DNA from: Eledone cirrhosa
Lineage: Eukaryota
Length of the DNA stretch: 64,000 nt
Assembly: GCA_964016885.1 (NCBI GenBank)
Contig: OZ024755.1
Coordinates: forward strand, 37,634,001-37,698,000
Reading direction: 5' to 3'
Shown here one piece after another: positions 4,524-58,090 of the stretch. Position 1 is the first letter of the stretch. Each line of letters begins with the position of its first letter. Made by a program: the position numbers and the translations under genes. Under the pieces are notes generated by a model. The model made no database searches, had not been told where the DNA came from, and saw only the letters and a list, made by a program, of their open reading frames with translations.

Positions 4524-4753
4524 CATTAGAGTGTGTCTTTGGTCAGGTGGGGAGAGTCATTAATGGGCTTGGGATGGTGGTTATGCTGCTTGATGGAGTG
4601 GGGGAAGGGTCAGTCATCCCACCTTGGAACAGGAAGTGCTGGGATATGGGGTCACTTTTGAAGAAATGGAGACATGTTTGACATACTGTGGAAAATGTGT
4701 CTCAGTTAAATAGACAAATTACAATGGAGTAGAAATTTGAGAAGAGCTTTTAC

Positions 4754-4879
4754 CATTTTCATAACATATGTTGCCTAAGGCTCTGCAAGCCTGGACAGCT
4801 TTATTTATATCTGAACTCTGTAACATCTTCACCAATACTGGAACCATTTCACCATCTACAAATGGCTGCCGAAGAGATT
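4754..4879 (-). CDS. RAP1GDS1: RAP1GDS1 coding exon (probable exon 4), armadillo repeat (E)SLRQPFVDGEMVPVLVKMLQSSDINKAVQACRALGNICYEN
   Basis: Acceptor ttttaaag and donor G|gtaaaa. 126 nt, phase 1-1. RALGNICY is a SmgGDS hallmark motif. Confidence 0.95.
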
Positions 4880-4940
4880 CTTTAAAAAAATAGAGAAAAA
4901 GAGATAAATTAAATCTGAACCATTTTGTGGGCAGATTTCT

Positions 4941-5062
4941 ATAGTGGACTGTAGATTTCTGTGGTACATAGTTATAGTAGTGAGTTATAGTGGACTGTAG
5001 ATTTCTGTGGTACATAGTTATAGTAGTGAGTTATAGTGGACTGTAGATTTCTGTGGTACATA
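4941..5062. repeat. 46-bp tandem repeat, ~2.6 copies
   Basis: atagtggactgtagatttctgtggtacata at 4941, 4987 and 5033. Confidence 0.85.
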
Positions 5063-23011: not shown

Positions 23012-24715
23012 CATCATCATGTTGAGTTATCTCAGACAACGTTGATAATTCTTCTTCTCCACTTGTCCATATCCAACATGGCTTCTGTGAGTTCATTCTT
23101 TCTAAGATTTGTGTCTTTAAAAACCTGCTCCAGAAATATAGCATGAGGCCACCATCCTCTTGTTCTACATGTGAGAGTTCCTATAGCAGTAACTGGTATA
23201 ATGTCTCAGTCATGTGACAGTTCCTTCAGCAGTAACTGGTATAATGTCTCAGTCATGTGACAGTTCCTATAGCAGTAACTGGTATAATATCTCAGTCATG
23301 TGACAGTTCCTTCAGCAGTAACTGGTATAATGTCTGTCTTCTAGCCTGTATGATCTTTGTTATTGGTCTCAGGTTGCTGTATAATGACTTGTTTCTTCTT
23401 TGCTCCCTCCAAGATACATTTTATACTGTCCTCAATAGTCTTGTATATGTACCATCTCTTTTGTGAGTGTCCAACACTCTGCTCCAAACACAAGCACCCT
23501 GTCCTCAATAGTCTTGTATATGTACCATCTCTTTTGTGACTGTCCAGCACTCCGCTCCAAACACAAGCACCCTGTCCTCAATAGTCTTGTATATGTACCA
23601 TCTCTTTTGTGAGTGTCCAACACTCTGCTCCAAACACAAGCACCCTGTCCTCAATAGTCTTGTATATGTACCATCTCTTTTGTGAGTGTCCAACACTCTG
23701 CTCCAAACACAAGCACCCTGTCCTCAATAGTCTTGTATATGTACCATCACTTTTGTGAGTGTCCAACACTCTGCTCCAAACACAAGCACCCTGTCCTCAA
23801 TAGTCTTGTATATGTACCATCTCTTTTGTGAGTGTCCAACACTCTGCTCCAAACACAAGCACCCTGTCCTCAATAGTCTTGTATATGTACCATCTCTTTC
23901 GTGAGTGTCCAACACTCTGCTCCAAACACAAGCACCCTGTCCTCAATAGTCTTGTATATGTACCATCTCTTTTGTGAGTGTCCAACACTCTGCTCCAAAC
24001 ACAAGAACCCTGTCCTCAATAGTCTTGTATATGTACCATCTCTTTTGTGAGTGTCCAACACTCTGCTCCAAACACAAGCACCCTGTCCTCAATAGTCTTG
24101 TATATGTACCATCTCTTTTGTGAGTGTCCAACACTCTGCTCCAAACACAAGAACCCTGTCCTCAATAGTCTTGTATATGTACCATCTCTTTTGTGAGTGT
24201 CCAACACTCTGCTCCAAACACAAGCACCCTGTCCTCAATAGTCTTGTATATGTACCATCTCTTTTGTGAGTGTCCAGCACTCTGCTCCAAACACAAGCAC
24301 CCTGTCCTCAATAGTCTTGTATATGTACCATCTCTTTTGTGAGTGTCCAATACTCTGCTCCAAACACAAGCACACTGTCCTCAATAGTCTTGTATATGTA
24401 CCATCTCTTTTGTGAGTGTCCAGCACTCTGCTCCAAACACAAGAACCCTGTCCTCAATAGTCTTGTATATGTACCATCTCTTTTGTGAGTGTCCAGCACT
24501 CTGCTCCAAACACAAGCACCCTGTCCTCAATAGTCTTGTATATGTACCATCTCTTTTGTGAGTGTCCAACACTCTGCTCCAAACACAAGCACCCTCTCCT
24601 CAATAGTCTTGTATATGTACCATCTAACCATCTCTCTGTGAGTGTCCAACACTCCACTCCACTGGAATTGTGTTAGCCTGGACAGTTGCAAACAAAAATG
24701 ATATGTTGTGTCTTT
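23012..24715 (-). mobile_element. LINE (RTE-like) 3' fragment with an internal 73-bp tandem array (~16 copies, 23426-24617)
   Basis: ECWTLT...LDGTYTRLLR thumb-region motif and a (GAT)n tail near 23010; the period of 73 is visible in the ORF offsets. Confidence 0.75.
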
Positions 24716-25689: not shown

Positions 25690-26082
25690 CGGTGGATTGG
25701 CAGTACCGGTAGAGGGTCAGACGCCGTGCTTTGCTGCAAAGAGTTACGGCCCTTTATGGTCTGAGTTCAAATCCCGCCGAGGTTAACTTTGCCTTTCATC
25801 CTTACGGGGGTCGTAAAATAAAGTACCAGTAATACACTGAGATAATTGCTGGCCTTGTGCCAAAAGTAGAAACAATTATTACTATTAAATATTATTTGTT
25901 TCTACTTTAGGCACAAGGCCAGCAATTACCCAGTGCATTACTGGTACTTTATTTTATCGACCCCGTAAGGATGAAAGGCAAAGTCAACCTCGGCGGGATT
26001 TGAACTCAGATCGTAAAGGGACGTAACTATGCTGGAAAGCATGGCGTCCGACCCTCTACCGATACTGCCAATCCACCGCCTA
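25690..26082. mobile_element. Tail-to-tail inverted pair of SINE family B (25690-25880 +, 25895-26082 -)
   Basis: The second copy is the reverse complement of the consensus. Confidence 0.85.
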
Positions 26083-26300
26083 TTACTATTCAATATTATT
26101 ATTATTATTATTTCCATTATTATTTTTATTGCGCATGATCACTGCTTTACCGAGCACAGCTCTGTGTGTCTTGGCTATGTGCAGTATAGTTATTGCTGAT
26201 GTTGTTTCTATTGTATTGACAGTACTTTTCATAATATGTGTGCAGTACCTAGTAGTGCTATCTTTTGTATGCTGTATATATTTGTAAGTCACGTGGTACT

Positions 26301-29300
26301 CATCATCATCATCATCATCATCATTTTACGTCCGCTTTTCCTGCTTGCAAGAGTGGGATGGGTTCTATTCAGCACAGCATCTCTCCACTTGTCACGGTCC
26401 TTCGTCATCTCCACCATGAGCTTCAGCGATCTGAGGTCTGCTCTCACCACCTCCGCCCATGTTTTTTGTGGTCTTCCTCTACTACGTCTTCCTTCAACTG
26501 GCATTTCTTGGCACTTCTTCACCCACTGGTCATCCTCCATGCACATCACATGTCCATACCACTGCAGTCTCCTCTCCTGCACACTACAATTTATCCCTCT
26601 CAGACACAGTTTCTCTCTCAACACATCCATGCTTGGCCGTTCATGCACATTGACATTGCACATCCAACGGAGCATGCTTGCCTCATTTCTCTCCAGTCGT
26701 CGCATATCTTCTGCAGTTGCTGCCCAAGTCTCACTACCATGCACTTCACACAGGCATCATATAACCGGCCTTTCATACACAGGGAGAAACCCTTCTTCGT
26801 CAGCAGAGGGAGCAGCTCCCTAAACATCTTCCAACTCGTCCTTATTTTAGATACTATGGCCTCGGAACACCCCATCCCGTGCTAATCTGATCACCTAGGT
26901 ACCGGAAGCTATCAACCACTTCTATAGCACCCACTTGCATTTGAAAAATTTGTCTATCAATGCGACTTTTACTGTCAAATTTCCCTGTACATCTACTGCA
27001 TACATATTTCTCCGTATCTGTTAGTTTGCCTGCTATCCCACTACATCTCTTGTGTACCCAGGATCTGCATTGTGTACATTTTATAGAATTCATGCCAGTT
27101 TCTTTTCTGCATATTGAACATGGCCATTTACCTGACGGAATCAGAGTTTTGTCCTCTTTTCTACTCATCAACACTTTTGTCTTAGCTAGGTTCACTCTCA
27201 GTCCTCTTGATTCCAACTGCTGTTTCCATAGCCAGAATTTATTCTCTAGCTCCTCTAGTGATTCTGCTATAAGAACCAGATCGTCAGCATAGAGAAGTTC
27301 CCATGGACAGCCAATCTTAAACTCCTCTGTTATGGCTTGGAGAACTATAATGAACACGAGTGGGCCGAGGACCGAACCCTGATGTACTCCTACTTGTATC
27401 TGGAATTCCTTACTAAACTCCATTCCTACTCTGACAGCACCTCTGTACAAAGCTTGCATTGTCCTCTCAAGCCATTCCTCAACACCTAGTTTCCTTAGGG
27501 ACCACCAGGTGACAGATAGGGGTACCCTATCAAAGGCCTTCTCTAGGTCAACAAAAGCTAAGTATAGTGGCTTATTCTTCTCTAAGAACCCCTCTTGTAA
27601 TTGTCTCACTAAGAAGAGAGCATCCATTGTACTTTTCCCAGGCACAAAACCAAACTGCATCTCATCTACTTTGACCCTTTCTCTAATTAGTTGTGCTAAT
27701 ATCCTATCTGCCACTTTCATAACCTGATCCATCAGCTTTATGCCCCTATAATTGCTCCTCTCCAGGGCATCCCCTTTACTTTACCTTTGTAGCAATTTAT
27801 AAGAATACTGCTGCACCAGTCTTTGGGTATGACACCGCCATATATAGCCTGATTGATGATGTGTGCAACCAGTTTAGTGCCTACGTCCCCTGATGCCTTC
27901 AGCATCTCAGCAACTATCCCAGACGGTCCAGCGGCCTTACCATTTTTCATTTCCTTAATCACCTCTTGGACCCTATATTTCACAATCTCAATAGCTAGTC
28001 CCTCTGTCGGATCTACTGAGGGTAATTTCTCTCTCTCCCATTCGTTCTCCACATTCATCAGTCTCTCATAATGACATTTCCAGGCCTCCTTTTTCTGATC
28101 ATTCGTGACACTAAGTACACCAGCATCATTCCGGACACATTTATCTCCAACAATATCCTGATTTGCACTGACACACTGCCTTGCAATGCGGAAACCTGCA
28201 TGTCTCTGATCCTCCTACTCTCAGCGTCCCTGCGTGCTAAGTACACCTGATGTCTAGCTTCTCTCTTAGCAGCTGTATATCCTTCTCTACTCCCACCATT
28301 TTTCCAAGCATTCCATGCTAGTTTTTTCTCTCTAACGGCCCTATCTACCGAGCTGTTCCACCACCAGGTCACTCTCCGTTTGGTTGGAGCTCTGCAGTAA
28401 GTTGTCACATAAGAAATTCCAGTTATCATCTATGTCATATGGCTCTAAATCATCTTCTTTTTCGTCATACACATCTTGAAGGGCTTTCCTAAATTTGTCT
28501 TTTAGTGAAAGGTCTTTTAGTTTTCAGACCTTTCTTCTCCACACCTTCCTGTATGTCTCATTCCATCTCTTGCTTACTGAGATATCACTAACGACTAACC
28601 TATGCTGTGGGGTACATTCTTCCCCGGGGTATGCCTTGGTATTTGACACCATCTGCCTGTCCCGCTGCCTATCTACTAAGAAGTCAATCTGGCTTATGTG
28701 CTCGCCTGATCTGGAGGTTATTAGGTGGTTGGCAGGTTTCTGGAAGTTATTGCGGTTGTTTGTAAAAGTTGCCGTAAAAGCAGTCTTTCTCTTCTTTGCC
28801 TAGGCCTGCTTGGGGAGCATAGGCCGAGATGATTGTCAGTAGTCTCCTGCCTACAACTAATCCAAGCTTAATCATTCTATTACTAACTCGAATTACCTCT
28901 ATTGTCTTATTGATCCATCTCTCAGCCAGGAAAATGCCTACTGCCCCTAACCCATCATCATTACCCACCCAGAAAAATAACTAAGATGTTTGCTTGCGAT
29001 TAGTCTCACAGAGGCACCTCTCCATCTCACCTCTTGCACGCAGCACACATCCACATGCCTTCTCTCCAGCATCTCCACTATTACTCCAGATCTACCTGTG
29101 AGAGTGCCAACATTAAGTGTTGCAACTCTGAGATGCGACATCTTCATGTTCTTGTTCCTTTTCCTGTAGTGTGATTGCTTGATCACGGTGTGTGTGTGTA
29201 TGTAGGGGGAGGGGGGTAGGGTTCTCGCACATGGCCTCACCAGCCACCCCACTACCGTGCGCAGCCCTAACATGGTTAGTGTTATTGCTGTTGATGCAGT

Positions 29301-29425
29301 TGTTGCAATTCTCATTTGTTGTGCTCATAGTTTTTGGCAGTAGTATATATACTGGTTGGATGCCCTTCCTAATACCAACACCACTTTACAGCATGGACTG
29401 GGTGCTTTTATTCATGCCACCAGCA
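26301..29425 (-). mobile_element. Near full-length degenerate RTE-clade LINE (5' UTR, APE endonuclease, RT with PHD insert, (GAT)n tail)
   Basis: LRVATLNVGTL...VQEVRW, IISAYAPQ, QFGFVPGKST, FVDLEKAFDRV, GVHQGSVL, LYADDL, FRYLG and HGSETW. Multiple frameshifts and deletions. Confidence 0.95.
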
Positions 29426-29707
29426 CTAGAGAGGACGTCTTACTGGACTCATGGACCATCTCTACCCCTACATTTTACAGCATGGTCATAACAATAATAA
29501 AAACCCTCACTTATTGACACTCATACTTATGACACACACACACACACACTCACTCACACACCAAAACTCATGCATACAAACACACACACACACCATTCAC
29601 TTACACACACACACACACACATATATTACCGTCATTACTGATACAAGATTATGTCAACTTTCGAAAGAGTTTGTATAGTTGAAGCCGTGTTACTGTTCAG
29701 TATTATT

Positions 29708-30090
29708 ATAATTGTTTCTACTCTTGGCACAAGGCCAGTAATTACCCAGTGCATTACTGGTACTTTGTTTTATCGACCCCCGTAAGGATGAAAGGCAAAG
29801 TTAACCTCGGCGAGATTTGAATTCATACCGTAAAGGGGCGTAACTCTATGCTGCAAAGCATAGCGTCCGACTGCCTATTAATACTGCCAATCCACCGCCC
29901 TGGTGGATTGGCAGTATCAGTAGAGGGTCGGACGCCATGCTTTCCAGCATAGTTACGTCCCTTTACGATCTGAGTTCAAATCCCGCCGAGGTTGACTTTG
30001 CCTTTCATCCTTACAGGGTCGATCAAATAAAGTACCAGTAATGCACTGGGTATTTGCTGGCCTTGTGCCTAAAGTAGAAACAATTATTAT
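29708..30090. mobile_element. Head-to-head inverted pair of SINE family B (29708-29900 -, 29902-30090 +)
   Basis: ...ctgccaatccaccgccc directly abuts tggtggattggcag... Confidence 0.88.
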
Positions 30091-30096
30091 AATAAT

Positions 30097-30256
30097 TGCT
30101 TTACAGCATAGAGCTATGGCCCTCTACGCTCTGAGTTCAAATCCCGCCGAGGTCAACCTTGCCCCTCATCCCCACGGAGTCGACAAAACAAAGCACCAGC
30201 AATGCGCTGGGACAATCGCTGGCCCAGAGCCGAAGCAGAAAAATTATTATTATTAT
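30097..30256 (+). mobile_element. SINE family B, 5' truncated, hypermutated T>C
   Basis: gtcgacaaaacaaagcaccagcaatg versus the consensus gtcgataaaataaagtaccagtaatg. Confidence 0.85.
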
Positions 30257-30282
30257 AGTTGTTTTCTTAAGGCCCGATCGCT

Positions 30283-30670
30283 GGTGATGGTGCTGGTGGT
30301 GGTGGTGGTGGATGGTGGTAGTGGTGGTGGTGGATGGTGGTGGTAATGGTGATGGTGGATGGTGGTGGATGGTGGTGGATGGTGGTGGTGGATGGTGGAT
30401 GGTGGTGGTGGTGGTGGATGGGGGTAGTGGTAGATGGTGGTGGTGGATGGTGGTGGTGGTGGATGGTGGATGGTGGATGGTGGTGGATGGTGGTAGTGGT
30501 GGTGGTGGATGGTGGTGGTAATGGTGATGGATGGTGGTGGTGGATGGTGGTGGATGGTGGATGGTGGTGGTGGTGGTGGATGGTGGTAGTGGTAGATGGT
30601 GGTAGTGATGGTGGTGGTGGATGGTGGTGGTGGTGGATGGTGGTGGATGGTGGTGGTGATGGTGGTGGCA
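30283..30670. repeat. (GGT/GGAT)n low-complexity tract
   Basis: Seen directly. Confidence 0.9.
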
Positions 30671-30798
30671 GTTGATGTTGTTGTAGTTCCTCTTGATGTT
30701 GGTGTTCATTTCATTCTGCTGTTGTTGTTGCTTTAGACATTGGTGCCGGTGTTGTTGTTGTAGATGTTGGGTTGAAATTTGGTCGTTTCGACTGAGTG

Positions 30799-30831
<33 letters not shown>

Positions 30832-30891
30832 CTCACAAAGCTTGTCTTTTTTGATGGCAGTGAAAGTCATATTTGTTGTTAATATGGTAAT

Positions 30892-31225
30892 GGAGGCATA
30901 TGGCTTAGTGGTTAGAGCATTAGCCTTGCAATCGAAAGGTTGTGAGTTCAATTCTCAGACCAGGTGGTGTGTTGTTTCCTTGAGCAAGGCACTTTATTTC
31001 ACATTGCTCCAGTTTACTCAGCTGTAGAAATGAGATGATAGGACTGGGGTCCCTATCATTCCACTGCAAAGTGGTCGTGTAGGTGCCACGGCAAAAACCA
31101 CCCAGCACTCACTGTAAATGAGGTTGGTGTTAGGAAGGGCATCCAGCTGTAGAAATCAAGCCAGAATCAGTTCCCATCCCACCCTTGCAAGCAGGGAAAA
31201 GTGGACGTAAAATGATGATGATGAT
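30892..31225 (+). mobile_element. SINE family A, full length
   Basis: Head, CORE-like body and RTE tail. Confidence 0.9.
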
Positions 31226-31839
31226 ACTCACACACATTCAACATAGAGAGAGTTGGCAACTGGTCAGTGACTTTAGTGTCTAGATAGTAATGACATGTGT
31301 AAATGTAAATGTGGTGGTGAGGAGAGAGTGTAGACGTTATTGTGGTGGTAGCGGGTGGCAGTGAGATGTATCTAGTTCATTTGTCCGTTTTCTTCTCTTT
31401 GCAAAATTTTAATTTTAACCATGTTGCATTGGGAATGCAAGTAAATGTAAAATGTAAATAAAGATTGCTCTGGGAAAATATATGAAAATATTTGTGTAAC
31501 TTCCACAAACTTCTGTCAGGATATTTCCCAAGTCCAGTGAGCAAAAACTTTGTTGTATTTTGATATTTCAGAATACAAAAATTAACCAAAACTTACCCCC
31601 ACGAAAAGACAGCATGTGTTGTCCGCTCTATAAGCTCCCTCTATATATACAGTGCCTAGTAGTGCTATCTTTTGTATGTTGTATATATTTGTAAGTCCTG
31701 GGGTTTTGGCTATGTGTCTGTCTGTGTTATTTTATCATTCCCAGAGCACCTATTATTATAGGTATTGTTTCTGTTTTCATTTTCCATATTCGAGTTATTT
31801 CTATCTCTAGATCTTTATATTTGGAAAGTTTCTCTATTA

Positions 31840-33310
31840 TTATTTCTGCTAAAAGCAGAGTTCAAGATTTTGGCCAAGGTGCTAACAAAGAGGTTGGCAG
31901 TTGTCATCAGTGGTCTGGTGGGAGAGGTGCAGACATGTGCCATTCCAGACAGATCCATCCATGACAACCTCCACCTCATGCAATACATAACGGAGAAATA
32001 GCTAGGGAACCTGGCACGGGTGGGGCCTTGATCAATTTAGATCAGTTGAAAGCTTTCGATAGGGTCGACCATTGTTATCTGGTGGCAGTTCTGAAGGTGG
32101 CCGGCTTTGGACCCGTCTTCAGAGGCTGGATTGCTGCCATGCACAGCGACATCTGCTCCGTGGTGAGAGTGAACGGTCATCTTTCGGAACTGTTCAACAC
32201 CACGTGTTCGGTCTGCCAAAGATGTCTCCTCTCGTCTCTGTTGTACGTATTGACTCTCGAGCCATTACTGCACAAACTGGAGATGTTGAGGGGGGTCCCA
32301 CGCAAACTGGGATGCAGGAGAACCAGGTCAGCATATGCAGATGTCACCGCAGTGGTGTCGAATGCTAAACACATTGAGTCGATTGGCACTACACTAAGAG
32401 AATATGAGGTGGTGACGGGAGCAATGATTAACTAGGAAAAGTTGGAGGGTCTGCAGCTCGGCACCTGGAGAGGCAGGTCCATGTGCTGTCCAACAGCATC
32501 ATTGGACTGATGGATTATTTAAATTGCTAGGGGTCTGGTTTGGTCCAGACCTCTGGATGGACAGAAACTGAGACAATGTGACAAGCAGAGTGGAATGTCT
32601 TCAAGAGCTCACAGCCTTCAGCCAATCTGGCAGTACGATTGGTGGAAACTCCACCTTAGCATTTCATAGAGGATTAGTGGAGGGTAAGAATGATGTGTCC
32701 TTTGGAGACTCTGAACATTGACGAAAATCAACTAGTCACTCTTTTCTAGAGGACTTTCAGTCCAGGGCCCTTGGACAACTTCCAGAGATCTCTGGCCTGG
32801 CAGTGCTACCGTGGAGCCTTGCCAGTTCGAGATAAACTCTACAGGTATGGAAGTGCTGTCTGCCTGGCCTGTTCAAAGTGTGTACATTATGATGAAACTG
32901 TCCTGCTTGCACTCATTGGGTGTCTAAGTATTGCTGACCTGTCGGTTTATGCCGAGCATCTGCTGTCACGTGTTGGACAGACCTGACCATCAACTGAGTC
33001 CATTGTGAAGATTGCCCCGCTGTCCTCCTTTCGAGGAGAAGAACAGGCAGTTTTTATCTGCTTGGTAGCCATGGTGAAAGAGGTTGTCTGGTGGATGTGT
33101 TTGAAAAGGTTGAAGACAGCCATTTTCCTCTTCGGTGGAGCTCTGATTAACTTTTTCAGGTTTCACATGAAGAGGAAGATCAGGGTGGAGAGGGAAGTGC
33201 TGTCTTCCAACCAGTTTGTTGAAAGGAAGGTAAAAGTGGTGAGCATGGTCCATGTGAATGAGCCTGCCCTGAACATATGCCCGAGATTGAAGGAGAACAA
33301 CTGAAGGGGA
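31840..33310 (+). mobile_element. L1/Tx1-clade LINE ORF2 remnant (RT plus C-terminal cysteine-rich region)
   Basis: FKILAKVLTKRL, QTCAIPDRSIHDNL, LDQLKAFDRVDH, LLYVLTLEPL, AYAD and LAWQCYRGALPVRDKL...C..C. Confidence 0.88.
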
Positions 33311-56349: not shown

Positions 56350-58090
56350 GCAAACACTCCTTCCAGAGACTCCTGTCAGAAGCAACCATCTGATCCGGCT
56401 GGATTCCCAAGCGAGATCAGCCAAGTTCATAGATGTTATCCAACCATCTTACATGGGGGGGGGTCTATCCTATTTCTCCTGGCAGTTGGTTCCGCTCCTA
56501 AAATCTGTCCAGCGATTTTTTGCTGAGACATTCTAACCACATGCTCATAGCATCGGAGCTGTGATCTCCCAATTCGAATAAGTAGTGGCTCTACCTGGAG
56601 TGACTCTCTGATCTCCAAGCTAAGCATTCTATCAAGTAATGTTACTCCAAAGTCCCTTCGGAGAAATCCCATTTTGGCTGCTTGTATTCGCGATCATATT
56701 CTTTTACTCATTGCCCAAGATTCCTAACTATAGGTAAGAGTTGGCACGAATACCAAATTGAAGATATTGATTTTAGCTTTTATACTGACCTCCCTGCGTT
56801 GATTACTGAATACTGAAGCTGACTCATTACTGCACCAGTTCCAGCAATTCTTCCAGCAATTCTTACACTTAATTCAGCCTCCTACTTTTCATCACCCATA
56901 AATATGGCCCCAAGATACTTGAACTTCTCTACCTGCTTCAGTGGAACTCCATTCACATGTAGAGTGCACTACACAGGCTTCCTTGAGAGGACGACGAGTG
57001 TCTCAGTCTTTGCAGCATTCATTTTCATTCCAGTAATTCAGCACTTGGCATCAGACCTATCGAGTGCAAGTCGGGGATCACCTTCTGTTGAGTTAAGTAA
57101 CACCATGTTGTCTGCAAATTCCAGCCGACTGATTTTACACCCACCAGTCATGATCCCACTTCCAACCTCACTGCGTATGTCAATCCCATTCATGTAAATA
57201 AGGCACCCTTGGCAAAATCCAACTCCCACATTGAATGGTTTTGATTTAGCACCATTTATCAGAACACAAATACACATGCATTCATATAGAGACATCAGGG
57301 CAACAAGAAGCTGACCATCAATCCCATACTCCTGCACAACCTTCCACAGCAGGTCCCGATAAATGCTGTCATATGCCTTTTCAAGGTCAATAAAACAAGA
57401 ATATACCTCTTGGCAATACTCCCACAATTTCTTGAAGACCTGTCGCAATGTAAATATTTGGTCGGCTGTAATGTGGCCGGGGTGAAAACTACACTGTTCA
57501 TCAGCTAGCTTGGACTCGACAATCTCCCTGTATCTCTTTGACAGACACTAAGCATAGACTATACTGGGGAGGCTTAAGAAGGAGATCCCTCTGTAATTAG
57601 AACAGTATCTCTTGTCTCTCAGCAGTTAAATGTTGAGAGCGAAAGAGGCTTGGTTTGGCGCCGGATGGCAGGAGGACCCCCTTTGTTCAATCAAAAGGTC
57701 AAAGATGCCATCTGAGCAAAGAAGGAGGCTTACAAAGCTTGACTTGGAAATAAATGCTTCTTCTTGCACTTGCAGTACAAGCAGGCATAAATAATCACAG
57801 TAGAGGCATTAAAAGTGTCCAAAGTAAAGACATGGGAGGACTTTGGGGTTAAGCTGGAATCCGACTTCAGATCAGCAAATAAAGTGTTCTGGCAGACCAT
57901 CCACTGTCTTTGTAATATGAAGCCCTCCTCCACACCTGCTATCAGGAACACGCCTGGTGTTCTCTCTCGCTAGGTGGAGGGAATACTTTGCTGAGCTCCT
58001 AAACCCGATCCCAACAGCATCTTCCGCTGTACACAGGGTGCATCTGAGAATGGTGACTAATCTCAGAGAAGGTGAGATTACAAGAGCAAT
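56350..58090 (-). mobile_element. Expander/Rex3-like RTE LINE remnant with an inverted 5' segment (57620-58090 on +)
   Basis: Minus strand: NYRGIS, FIDLEKAYD, EFADNMV, FKYLG, MGFLRR...EHVVRM. Plus strand: WEDFG..LESD, LARWREYFAELLN. Confidence 0.85.

What the first reader, a model, noticed from the sequence alone, without database searches (positions are those of the whole stretch)
30097..30256. SINE copy with an ADAR-type hyper-editing signature fixed in genomic DNA
Seen: against the many sibling copies in this window, this copy has 16 T>C changes in about 125 bp (30114, 30124, 30154, 30158, 30164, 30165, 30172, 30173, 30184, 30189, 30194, 30200, 30213, 30217, 30225, 30236) and only a handful of other changes. 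Position 30154 may be a family variant. Read on the minus strand these are A>G. Fifteen have a 5' U or A neighbour, one has 5' C, and adenosines with a 5' G (plus-strand TC) are spared. Known: this is the ADAR neighbour preference, and coleoid cephalopods edit RNA extensively. Ordinary decay of the sibling copies shows no such T>C bias. Inference: an antisense-SINE RNA was hyper-edited and then reverse-transcribed or templated into the genome, or ADAR acted on an RNA:DNA hybrid. The edited strand is the host pre-mRNA strand, and the copy sits beside an inverted SINE pair.
Basis: partly seen in the sequence, partly recalled or inferred. Interest (0 to 1): 0.9.

Follow-up and report, generated by a model that had tools for sequence, protein, structure and literature searches.

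The report
RNA edits inherited by retrotransposon family
The one-stranded cluster of T-to-C changes is real but is shared by hundreds of copies of a jumping gene across this genome, most likely because the RNA-editing enzyme ADAR edited the RNA of a founder copy and the element's own reverse transcriptase likely wrote those edits into heritable DNA.

Summary
The cluster is real: 16 T>C among 21 substitutions against the closest free SINE subfamily, with ADAR's neighbour order on the minus strand (5'U 8/9, 5'A 7/12, 5'C 1/8, 5'G 0/6). It is not private to this copy. All 16 C alleles recur elsewhere, and 70 + 416 exact-motif matches mark the family. The SINE lies antisense in the 5' leader of an RTE-type LINE (26291-31649, minus strand, 48-nt target-site duplication), so the edited strand is the LINE's own RNA strand. 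The neighbouring inverted SINE pair is a later, unedited insertion. Best reading (0.8): a LINE RNA was hyper-edited in this segment, reverse-transcribed, and the daughter amplified, so edits became family sequence. Two copies carry 5-7 extra T>C, suggesting repeat rounds. No unedited leader and no duplex partner were found, and no RNA data were available, so ADAR is inferred from the signature alone. The scan noted ADAR-like fossils earlier in other genomes, as dead copies. A lineage founded by an edited RNA did not turn up in seven paper searches.

The parts
30097..30256 (+). 5'-truncated SINE copy, antisense to the LINE, carrying 16 T>C (A>G on the LINE RNA strand) against the donor-type free SINE
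26291..31649 (-). Whole retrotransposed unit: long 5' leader plus decayed RTE-type LINE
26243..26290 (+). Left target-site duplication (48 nt)
   Evidence: 46 of 48 identical to the right copy; an uninterrupted copy of the target repeat lies in L031
31650..31697 (+). Right target-site duplication (48 nt)
26289..29324 (-). Broken LINE ORF in at least five pieces: endonuclease-like start, reverse transcriptase, PHD finger, ending in a trinucleotide tail near 26300-26325
   Evidence: RVT_1 E 1.4e-29 and PHD E 1.2e-6; Exo_endo_phos weak, E 0.007
29490..31640 (-). Shared 5' leader with a fixed 5' end near 31640; here it lacks a unique block of about 290 nt found in other copies and carries later insertions
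29701..29896 (-). Free-type SINE copy A, later insertion into the leader, unedited
29902..30094 (+). Free-type SINE copy B, head-to-head with A, later insertion, unedited
29621..29714 (.). Leader flank that directly adjoins the edited SINE in copies without the A/B insertion
30259..30830 (.). Leader flank on the other side of the edited SINE, with an expanded GGT-type microsatellite

Best explanation
The T>C cluster is a family trait of a SINE lying antisense in the 5' leader of a LINE, and it most likely records ADAR hyper-editing of that LINE's RNA, which the LINE's own reverse transcriptase likely copied into a germline daughter that went on to amplify. Steps: (1) a donor-type SINE inserted antisense into the leader (the sequence relationship is shown, the order is inferred); (2) in LINE transcripts this segment paired with sense SINE RNA, from free SINE transcripts or from a sense copy in the same read-through RNA (inferred; partner not found); (3) ADAR converted about 15 of its adenosines to inosine (inferred from strand, density and context); (4) target-primed reverse transcription put C opposite inosine, giving plus-strand T>C (established enzymology, inferred here); (5) because the segment is non-coding the daughter stayed active and spread (sharing across hundreds of copies is shown); (6) the segment still pairs through G-U wobbles, so later transcripts were probably edited again (suggested by two copies and by lineage-specific sites).
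For: Older copies differ from the donor SINE at 17 majority positions, 15 of them T>C, 1 A>G, 1 G>A, with 40 T and 38 A sites available (p=1.3e-4). Free copies are symmetric (T>C 10.7, A>G 12.6 per 1000). T is the ancestral state: young and older free subfamilies have T, and so do contigs of other labelled organisms (loose ends). Context follows U>A>C>G: sites with C in at least 3 of 94 copies are 9/9, 10/12, 4/8, 0/6 (p=0.0006); upstream G depletion is the shared metazoan ADAR motif (PMC5625713, passages). The edited strand equals the LINE RNA strand, and the leader and ORF inserted as one unit. All 76 matches of a motif lying upstream of the edited sites were examined: 70 in the leader (63 full C-type, 7 truncated or interrupted), 6 free and unedited. 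Of 88 examined among 416 matches of a second motif, all are in the leader and 84 are C-type, 3 short, 1 mixed. Repeat rounds: in 66 young copies rare T>C is 32/1180 against A>G 12/1665 in the SINE (p=3.5e-5) and 7.2 against 8.1 per 1000 in flanks; L048 has 6-7 and L122 5-6 extra T>C with none in their flanks. ORF regions of 7 + 5 copies show no T>C run longer than 3. The genome holds four A_deamin loci.
Against: No unedited leader was found, so founder-level confinement to the SINE cannot be tested. No duplex partner: 12 of 94 copies have an inverted SINE nearby, no free copy scored has more than 3 A>G, and L048 and L122 have no inverted SINE in 8-10 kb. At the level of the old-group majority the context test is weak (5'G p=0.046; U/A against C/G p=0.074). 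No downstream-A enrichment, which PMC5625713 reports for invertebrates. The rare-allele test is null in 21 old copies (3/250 against 9/606; its filter removes the variable sites). In the 89 youngest copies 8 of 21 rare T>C are one shared site, the upstream flank is also T>C-leaning (17/2704 against 5/2362), and none of 58 newly fetched copies has more than 3. L122 was picked because of an odd allele. Seven shared A>G alleles also arose in the segment. No RNA run was available. Human L1 RNA was not found edited (PMC5224506, passages).
Confidence: 0.8

Rival explanations
1. DNA-level strand-biased A>G hypermutation at W-A sites by an error-prone polymerase (polymerase-eta-like, recalled) during repair or second-strand synthesis of one insertion, later amplified.
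For: It also favours a 5' A or T and spares 5' G (recalled, no call), and needs no RNA duplex, which was not found.
Against: 15 of 40 T sites changed and no T transversion at majority level in old copies. Such polymerases give lower density and many transversions (recalled). Extra T>C in L048 and L122 stay inside the SINE.
Confidence: 0.07
2. Error-prone reverse transcription, for example under unbalanced nucleotide pools, misread A as G in a founder cDNA.
For: It gives the same strand and the same route into DNA. Founder-level confinement to the SINE is untested.
Against: ORF regions show no such clusters. Flanks of the two re-edited copies have no T>C. The 5'-G sparing is not an expected feature (own knowledge).
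Confidence: 0.05
3. Ordinary subfamily drift, GC-biased conversion, or selection to keep an RNA duplex (allowing only wobble-compatible changes) accumulated the Cs over time.
For: It is a real subfamily, and G-U pairs keep the predicted duplex almost intact (-250.5 against -252.8 kcal/mol).
Against: Drift gives T>C about 9% of changes; P(15 or more of 17) is about 2e-14. GC bias would raise A>G equally (1 of 38). A wobble constraint would admit plus-strand G>A, which is commoner as a mutation, yet it is 1 against 15. Only one window T>C creates a CpG.
Confidence: 0.05
4. One reading: this single copy was edited in a host pre-mRNA through the neighbouring inverted pair, or in an RNA:DNA hybrid, and templated back at this locus.
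For: An inverted pair does adjoin it, and one host-like exon lies on the minus strand.
Against: All 16 alleles are shared with copies on other chromosomes. The pair is unedited and a later insertion.
Confidence: 0.01

Closest known systems
[quoted passage not shown]
   Same: Dense one-stranded A>G in a non-coding part of a reverse-transcribing element, near half of the adenosines.
   Different: Here a non-LTR retrotransposon in a germline genome; the target is a captured antisense SINE; the edited version became the family sequence of hundreds of copies.
APOBEC 'DNA-edited' LTR retroelements in vertebrate genomes (PMC4866542, PMC2873906; passages read)
   Same: Clustered, strand-biased deaminase footprint fixed in genomic retroelement copies, polarised against a family reference.
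   Different: G>A made on cDNA by a cytidine deaminase, reported absent from invertebrates; here A>G on the RNA strand with an ADAR-type context.
ADAR hyper-editing of SINE-containing transcripts across Metazoa and of repeats in coleoids (PMC5625713, PMC9068888; passages read)
   Same: SINE target, cluster form, upstream G depletion.
   Different: Those edits exist in RNA only; this one is in DNA and inherited. No downstream-A enrichment was seen here.
RTE-2_OV, an RTE-clade LINE of Octopus vulgaris (PMC9115989; passages and section 6 read)
   Same: The second LINE that shares the leader has the same layout: endonuclease, reverse transcriptase, C2H2 finger.
   Different: Not compared by sequence. 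The reported 5' UTR is about 600 nt against about 1.5-2.2 kb here. The window's LINE has a PHD finger, and its reverse transcriptase is only 28% identical to the second one.

Membership tests
ADAR hyper-edited sequence | Dense cluster of one change type, A>G on one strand | tested here: met
   16 T>C of 21 substitutions; 15 of 17 at old-group majority
ADAR hyper-edited sequence | G depleted 5' of edited A, order U>A>C>G | tested here: met
   8/9, 7/12, 1/8, 0/6 in the window copy; 9/9, 10/12, 4/8, 0/6 in the family; weaker at old-group majority, p=0.046
ADAR hyper-edited sequence | Downstream A preference reported for invertebrates | tested here: inconclusive
   3'A 5/14, 3'U 2/8, 3'C 4/9, 3'G 4/9
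ADAR hyper-edited sequence | Edited strand is the transcribed strand | tested here: met
   Minus strand is the LINE's coding strand; unit flanked by a target-site duplication. Transcription itself not observed.
ADAR hyper-edited sequence | Long double-stranded partner for the edited segment | tested here: inconclusive
   Free sense SINEs are abundant and pair in silico, but no co-mobilised edited partner was found
ADAR hyper-edited sequence | Inosine or RNA-DNA differences at these sites, dependent on ADAR | not testable with these tools
   No RNA holder listed; A_deamin genes are present
Single-copy, locus-specific editing fossil | Alleles private to one copy | tested here: not met
   Each C is shared by 8-90 other copies
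RTE-clade LINE | One ORF with APE-type endonuclease and reverse transcriptase | tested here: met
   RVT_1 strong, endonuclease weak in the window (E 0.007), over the cut-off in partner L039; ORF broken
RTE-clade LINE | Microsatellite 3' tail and target-site duplication | tested here: met
   Trinucleotide tail near 26300-26325; 48-nt duplication
RTE-clade LINE | Placement in the RTE clade on a reverse-transcriptase tree | not tested
   The labels RTE and BovB-like are recalled from motif resemblance
Named SINE superfamily (Meta, CORE, Ceph, OR1/OR2) | Central domain matching a published consensus | not tested
   PMC4824008 passages gave no sequence to compare; no tRNA call by ARAGORN or Rfam on this copy

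The most novel reading that the evidence does not exclude
ADAR acts as a recurrent, heritable mutagen of an active LINE lineage: a captured antisense SINE makes the LINE's 5' leader a standing editing target, one hyper-edited RNA founded the surviving family, and later rounds added different A>G sets in sister lineages and single copies, while the leader passed between two unrelated LINEs.
Probability: 0.55. Interest if true: 0.85.

Novelty: new variant of a known kind. Interest (0 to 1): 0.68.

Why it matters
[quoted passage not shown] This family is a candidate worked example: edits made on RNA appear as the defining sequence of a lineage that kept amplifying, not as a dead end. It gives direct tests. 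The hot spots that are still unedited (for example window 30153, 30159, and in most copies 30164, 30165) should be edited in germline RNA, and sister species should show when the cluster arose. It also implies ADAR activity on retrotransposition-competent RNA in the germline or early embryo. Seven searches found no report of an amplified non-LTR lineage founded by an ADAR-edited RNA; the library lacks most subscription papers and I read no supplements.

Tried and rejected
Unedited progenitor: a pattern for the empty site gave 0 matches. Of 30 loci chosen by the leader's 5' end, 17 showed a C-type SINE, 11 lacked the anchor, 1 (L153) was not resolved and 1 was L161. L166 holds only a young free-type SINE with the adjoining leader deleted, so it is not a progenitor. 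L161 first looked like a half-edited intermediate, but L174, L175 and L177 show the same half-and-half form with young free SINEs, and L161's 5' half matches a non-donor subfamily, so I read all four as recombinants. L058 and L109 were flagged T-type, but they are truncated or interrupted copies with C at the first edited site; I counted them as truncated. The idea that editing freed the LINE from pairing with SINE RNA is not supported: the predicted duplex barely changes. The nearest-sibling count picked wrong neighbours for copies with little overlap, including the window copy, so I use it only for L048 and L122. The tree is poorly resolved (9 of 91 branches starred), and states on branches are not inferred, so whether T at 30125 and 30136 in the window's clade was never edited or reverted is open. 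One search misfiled five embedded copies as free; later calls correct this. The per-copy line for free SINEs is keyed by locus and was not used. No target-site duplication was found around other units, so co-mobilisation is shown for the window unit only. No RNA holder was listed. Runs of two other labelled organisms gave no cover over 30174-30236. A second repeat fragment in the leader (29341-29455) shows no T>C cluster.

Full report
Observation. The 16 positions are C in the window and T in most sibling SINEs nearby. A majority of 71 free copies and a small free subfamily sharing A30103, C30114 and T30117 (three full copies) show that 30114 came with the donor. Against the donor type the copy has 16 T>C (30129 in place of 30114), 2 A>G, 2 T>A, 1 G>A and two single deletions. 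Free copies carry 0-3 T>C each, and T>C is 21 of 237 rare changes, so the excess is far beyond chance. On the minus strand the changed adenosines have 5'U 8/9, 5'A 7/12, 5'C 1/8, 5'G 0/6 over 30118-30239 (range chosen after inspection). Raw genomic reads of a sample other than the best holder's carry the C alleles over 30174-30229, and contigs of three runs cover 30176-30262 at 97% or better. This excludes an RNA-polishing artefact for the family.

Not one copy but a family. A genome search returned 40 scored hits of 2993 candidates, the other 39 at 88-93% identity, closer than in-window siblings at 76-80%. The 29 fetched share most Cs and both flanks. A 24-nt window motif lying upstream of the edited sites has 76 exact matches, all examined: 70 in the shared flanks (63 full C-type, 7 truncated or interrupted) and 6 free, unedited donor-type SINEs. 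A second motif has 416 matches; of the first 88, all are in the same flanks, 84 C-type, 3 short, 1 mixed. Every window C is shared by 8-90 of about 93 copies (the set was selected for at least 8 T>C, and about 30 of its members were fetched by similarity to the window copy).

What carries it. The flanks belong to a leader with a fixed 5' end near 31640 on the minus strand (914 first-look candidates). It runs into a decayed LINE ORF at 29324-26289 with RVT_1 and PHD hits. The 5.36-kb unit interrupts an older repeat and is flanked by a 48-nt duplication, so leader and ORF were reverse-transcribed together. The SINE is antisense to this RNA, so plus-strand T>C is A>G on it. In other copies the same leader precedes a second LINE (endonuclease, RVT_1, C2H2) whose reverse transcriptase is 28% identical. 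Of 94 copies, 7 had the window-type junction, 32 the second type and 55 neither within the fetched DNA. Many of the latter have other elements at an ATT-repeat linker, which I read as later insertions. The inverted pair at 29701-30094 is such an insertion and has 1 and 0 T>C.

Direction and mechanism. Young and old free subfamilies and contigs of other labelled organisms have T, so C is derived. The 21 older copies differ from the donor at 17 majority sites, 15 T>C. Upstream G depletion is the shared ADAR motif (PMC5625713, passages), repeats are widely edited in coleoids (PMC9068888, passages), and the genome has four A_deamin loci. I therefore infer editing of the LINE RNA before reverse transcription. 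Against this: the majority-level context test is marginal (p=0.046 and 0.074), there is no downstream-A bias, no partner strand or unedited leader was found, and no RNA was available.

Repeat rounds. A 14-row clade holding the window copy (SH-aLRT 97) has C at 30164 in 10/14 against 9/79 elsewhere, at 30200 in 11/14 against 2/79, and T at 30125 and 30136 in 10/14 where most others have C. In 66 young copies rare T>C exceeds A>G in the SINE (32/1180 against 12/1665) but not in flanks. L048 and L122 carry 6-7 and 5-6 extra T>C and none in flanks. Limits: L122 was hand-picked, shared descent inflates counts, 58 further copies had at most 3, the old group shows no rare excess, and seven shared A>G alleles also occur. 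The edited segment still pairs with sense SINE RNA in silico, which fits continued editing and argues against escape from pairing.

Comparison. ADAR-type A>G is known from avian retroviruses (PMC12925331, passages), and APOBEC footprints from vertebrate LTR elements (PMC4866542, PMC2873906, passages). ADAR1 restricts human L1 without detected editing (PMC5224506, passages). A role in subfamily evolution was called undetermined in 2016 (PMC4982230, passage). Searches (listings and abstract starts) found no amplified non-LTR lineage founded by an edited RNA. Four earlier notes of this scan describe ADAR-like fossils in LINE copies of other genomes; they are unchecked, and a sequence look-up found nothing.

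Verdict. Observation partly confirmed; interpretation partly supported, with the event moved from this locus to a founder LINE RNA. Confidence 0.8, new variant of a known kind, interest 0.68.

Noticed in passing
window 29490-31640; L037, L039, L040, L041: One long 5' leader is shared by two LINEs whose reverse transcriptases are only 28% identical, which suggests promoter or leader swapping between families.
   Followed up: partly
leader ATT linker in L015, L019, L046, L048, L059, L081, L092, L114 and others: The linker between leader and ORF is a hot spot for insertion of free SINEs and of several other LINE-like elements (Tx1-like and R4-like labels recalled), many with their own 5' ends intact and on the leader's strand.
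   Followed up: partly
window 29701-30094 and 25727-26090; L004: Free SINEs often occur as tight inverted pairs, head-to-head with 5 nt between arms here and tail-to-tail at 25727-26090.
   Followed up: no
L161:900-1190, L174, L175, L177: Chimeric SINEs with an unedited 5' part and an edited 3' part, likely from recombination with a tandem free SINE.
   Followed up: yes
L163, L164, L169 (G000:C1:296.81-296.82 Mb): Three leader copies in tandem with a period of about 3.3 kb.
   Followed up: no
L073-L098, core positions about 26-73: A young sub-lineage has deleted about 48 nt of the edited SINE between two short direct repeats that the T>C changes appear to have created.
   Followed up: no
window 4722-5030, minus strand: Armadillo-repeat hit (E 3.5e-5), possibly a host exon.
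   Followed up: no
window 31965-32435 (+) and 57041-57547 (-): Further reverse-transcriptase fragments.
   Followed up: no
window 23344-24672: Long tandem array: six-frame ORFs recur at 73-nt steps.
   Followed up: no
L268-L269 (G000:C6:13644405-13646174): An A_deamin domain encoded in two large pieces on long open frames, unlike the many-exon loci on C1 and C25; possibly a retrocopy or an intron-poor paralogue.
   Followed up: no
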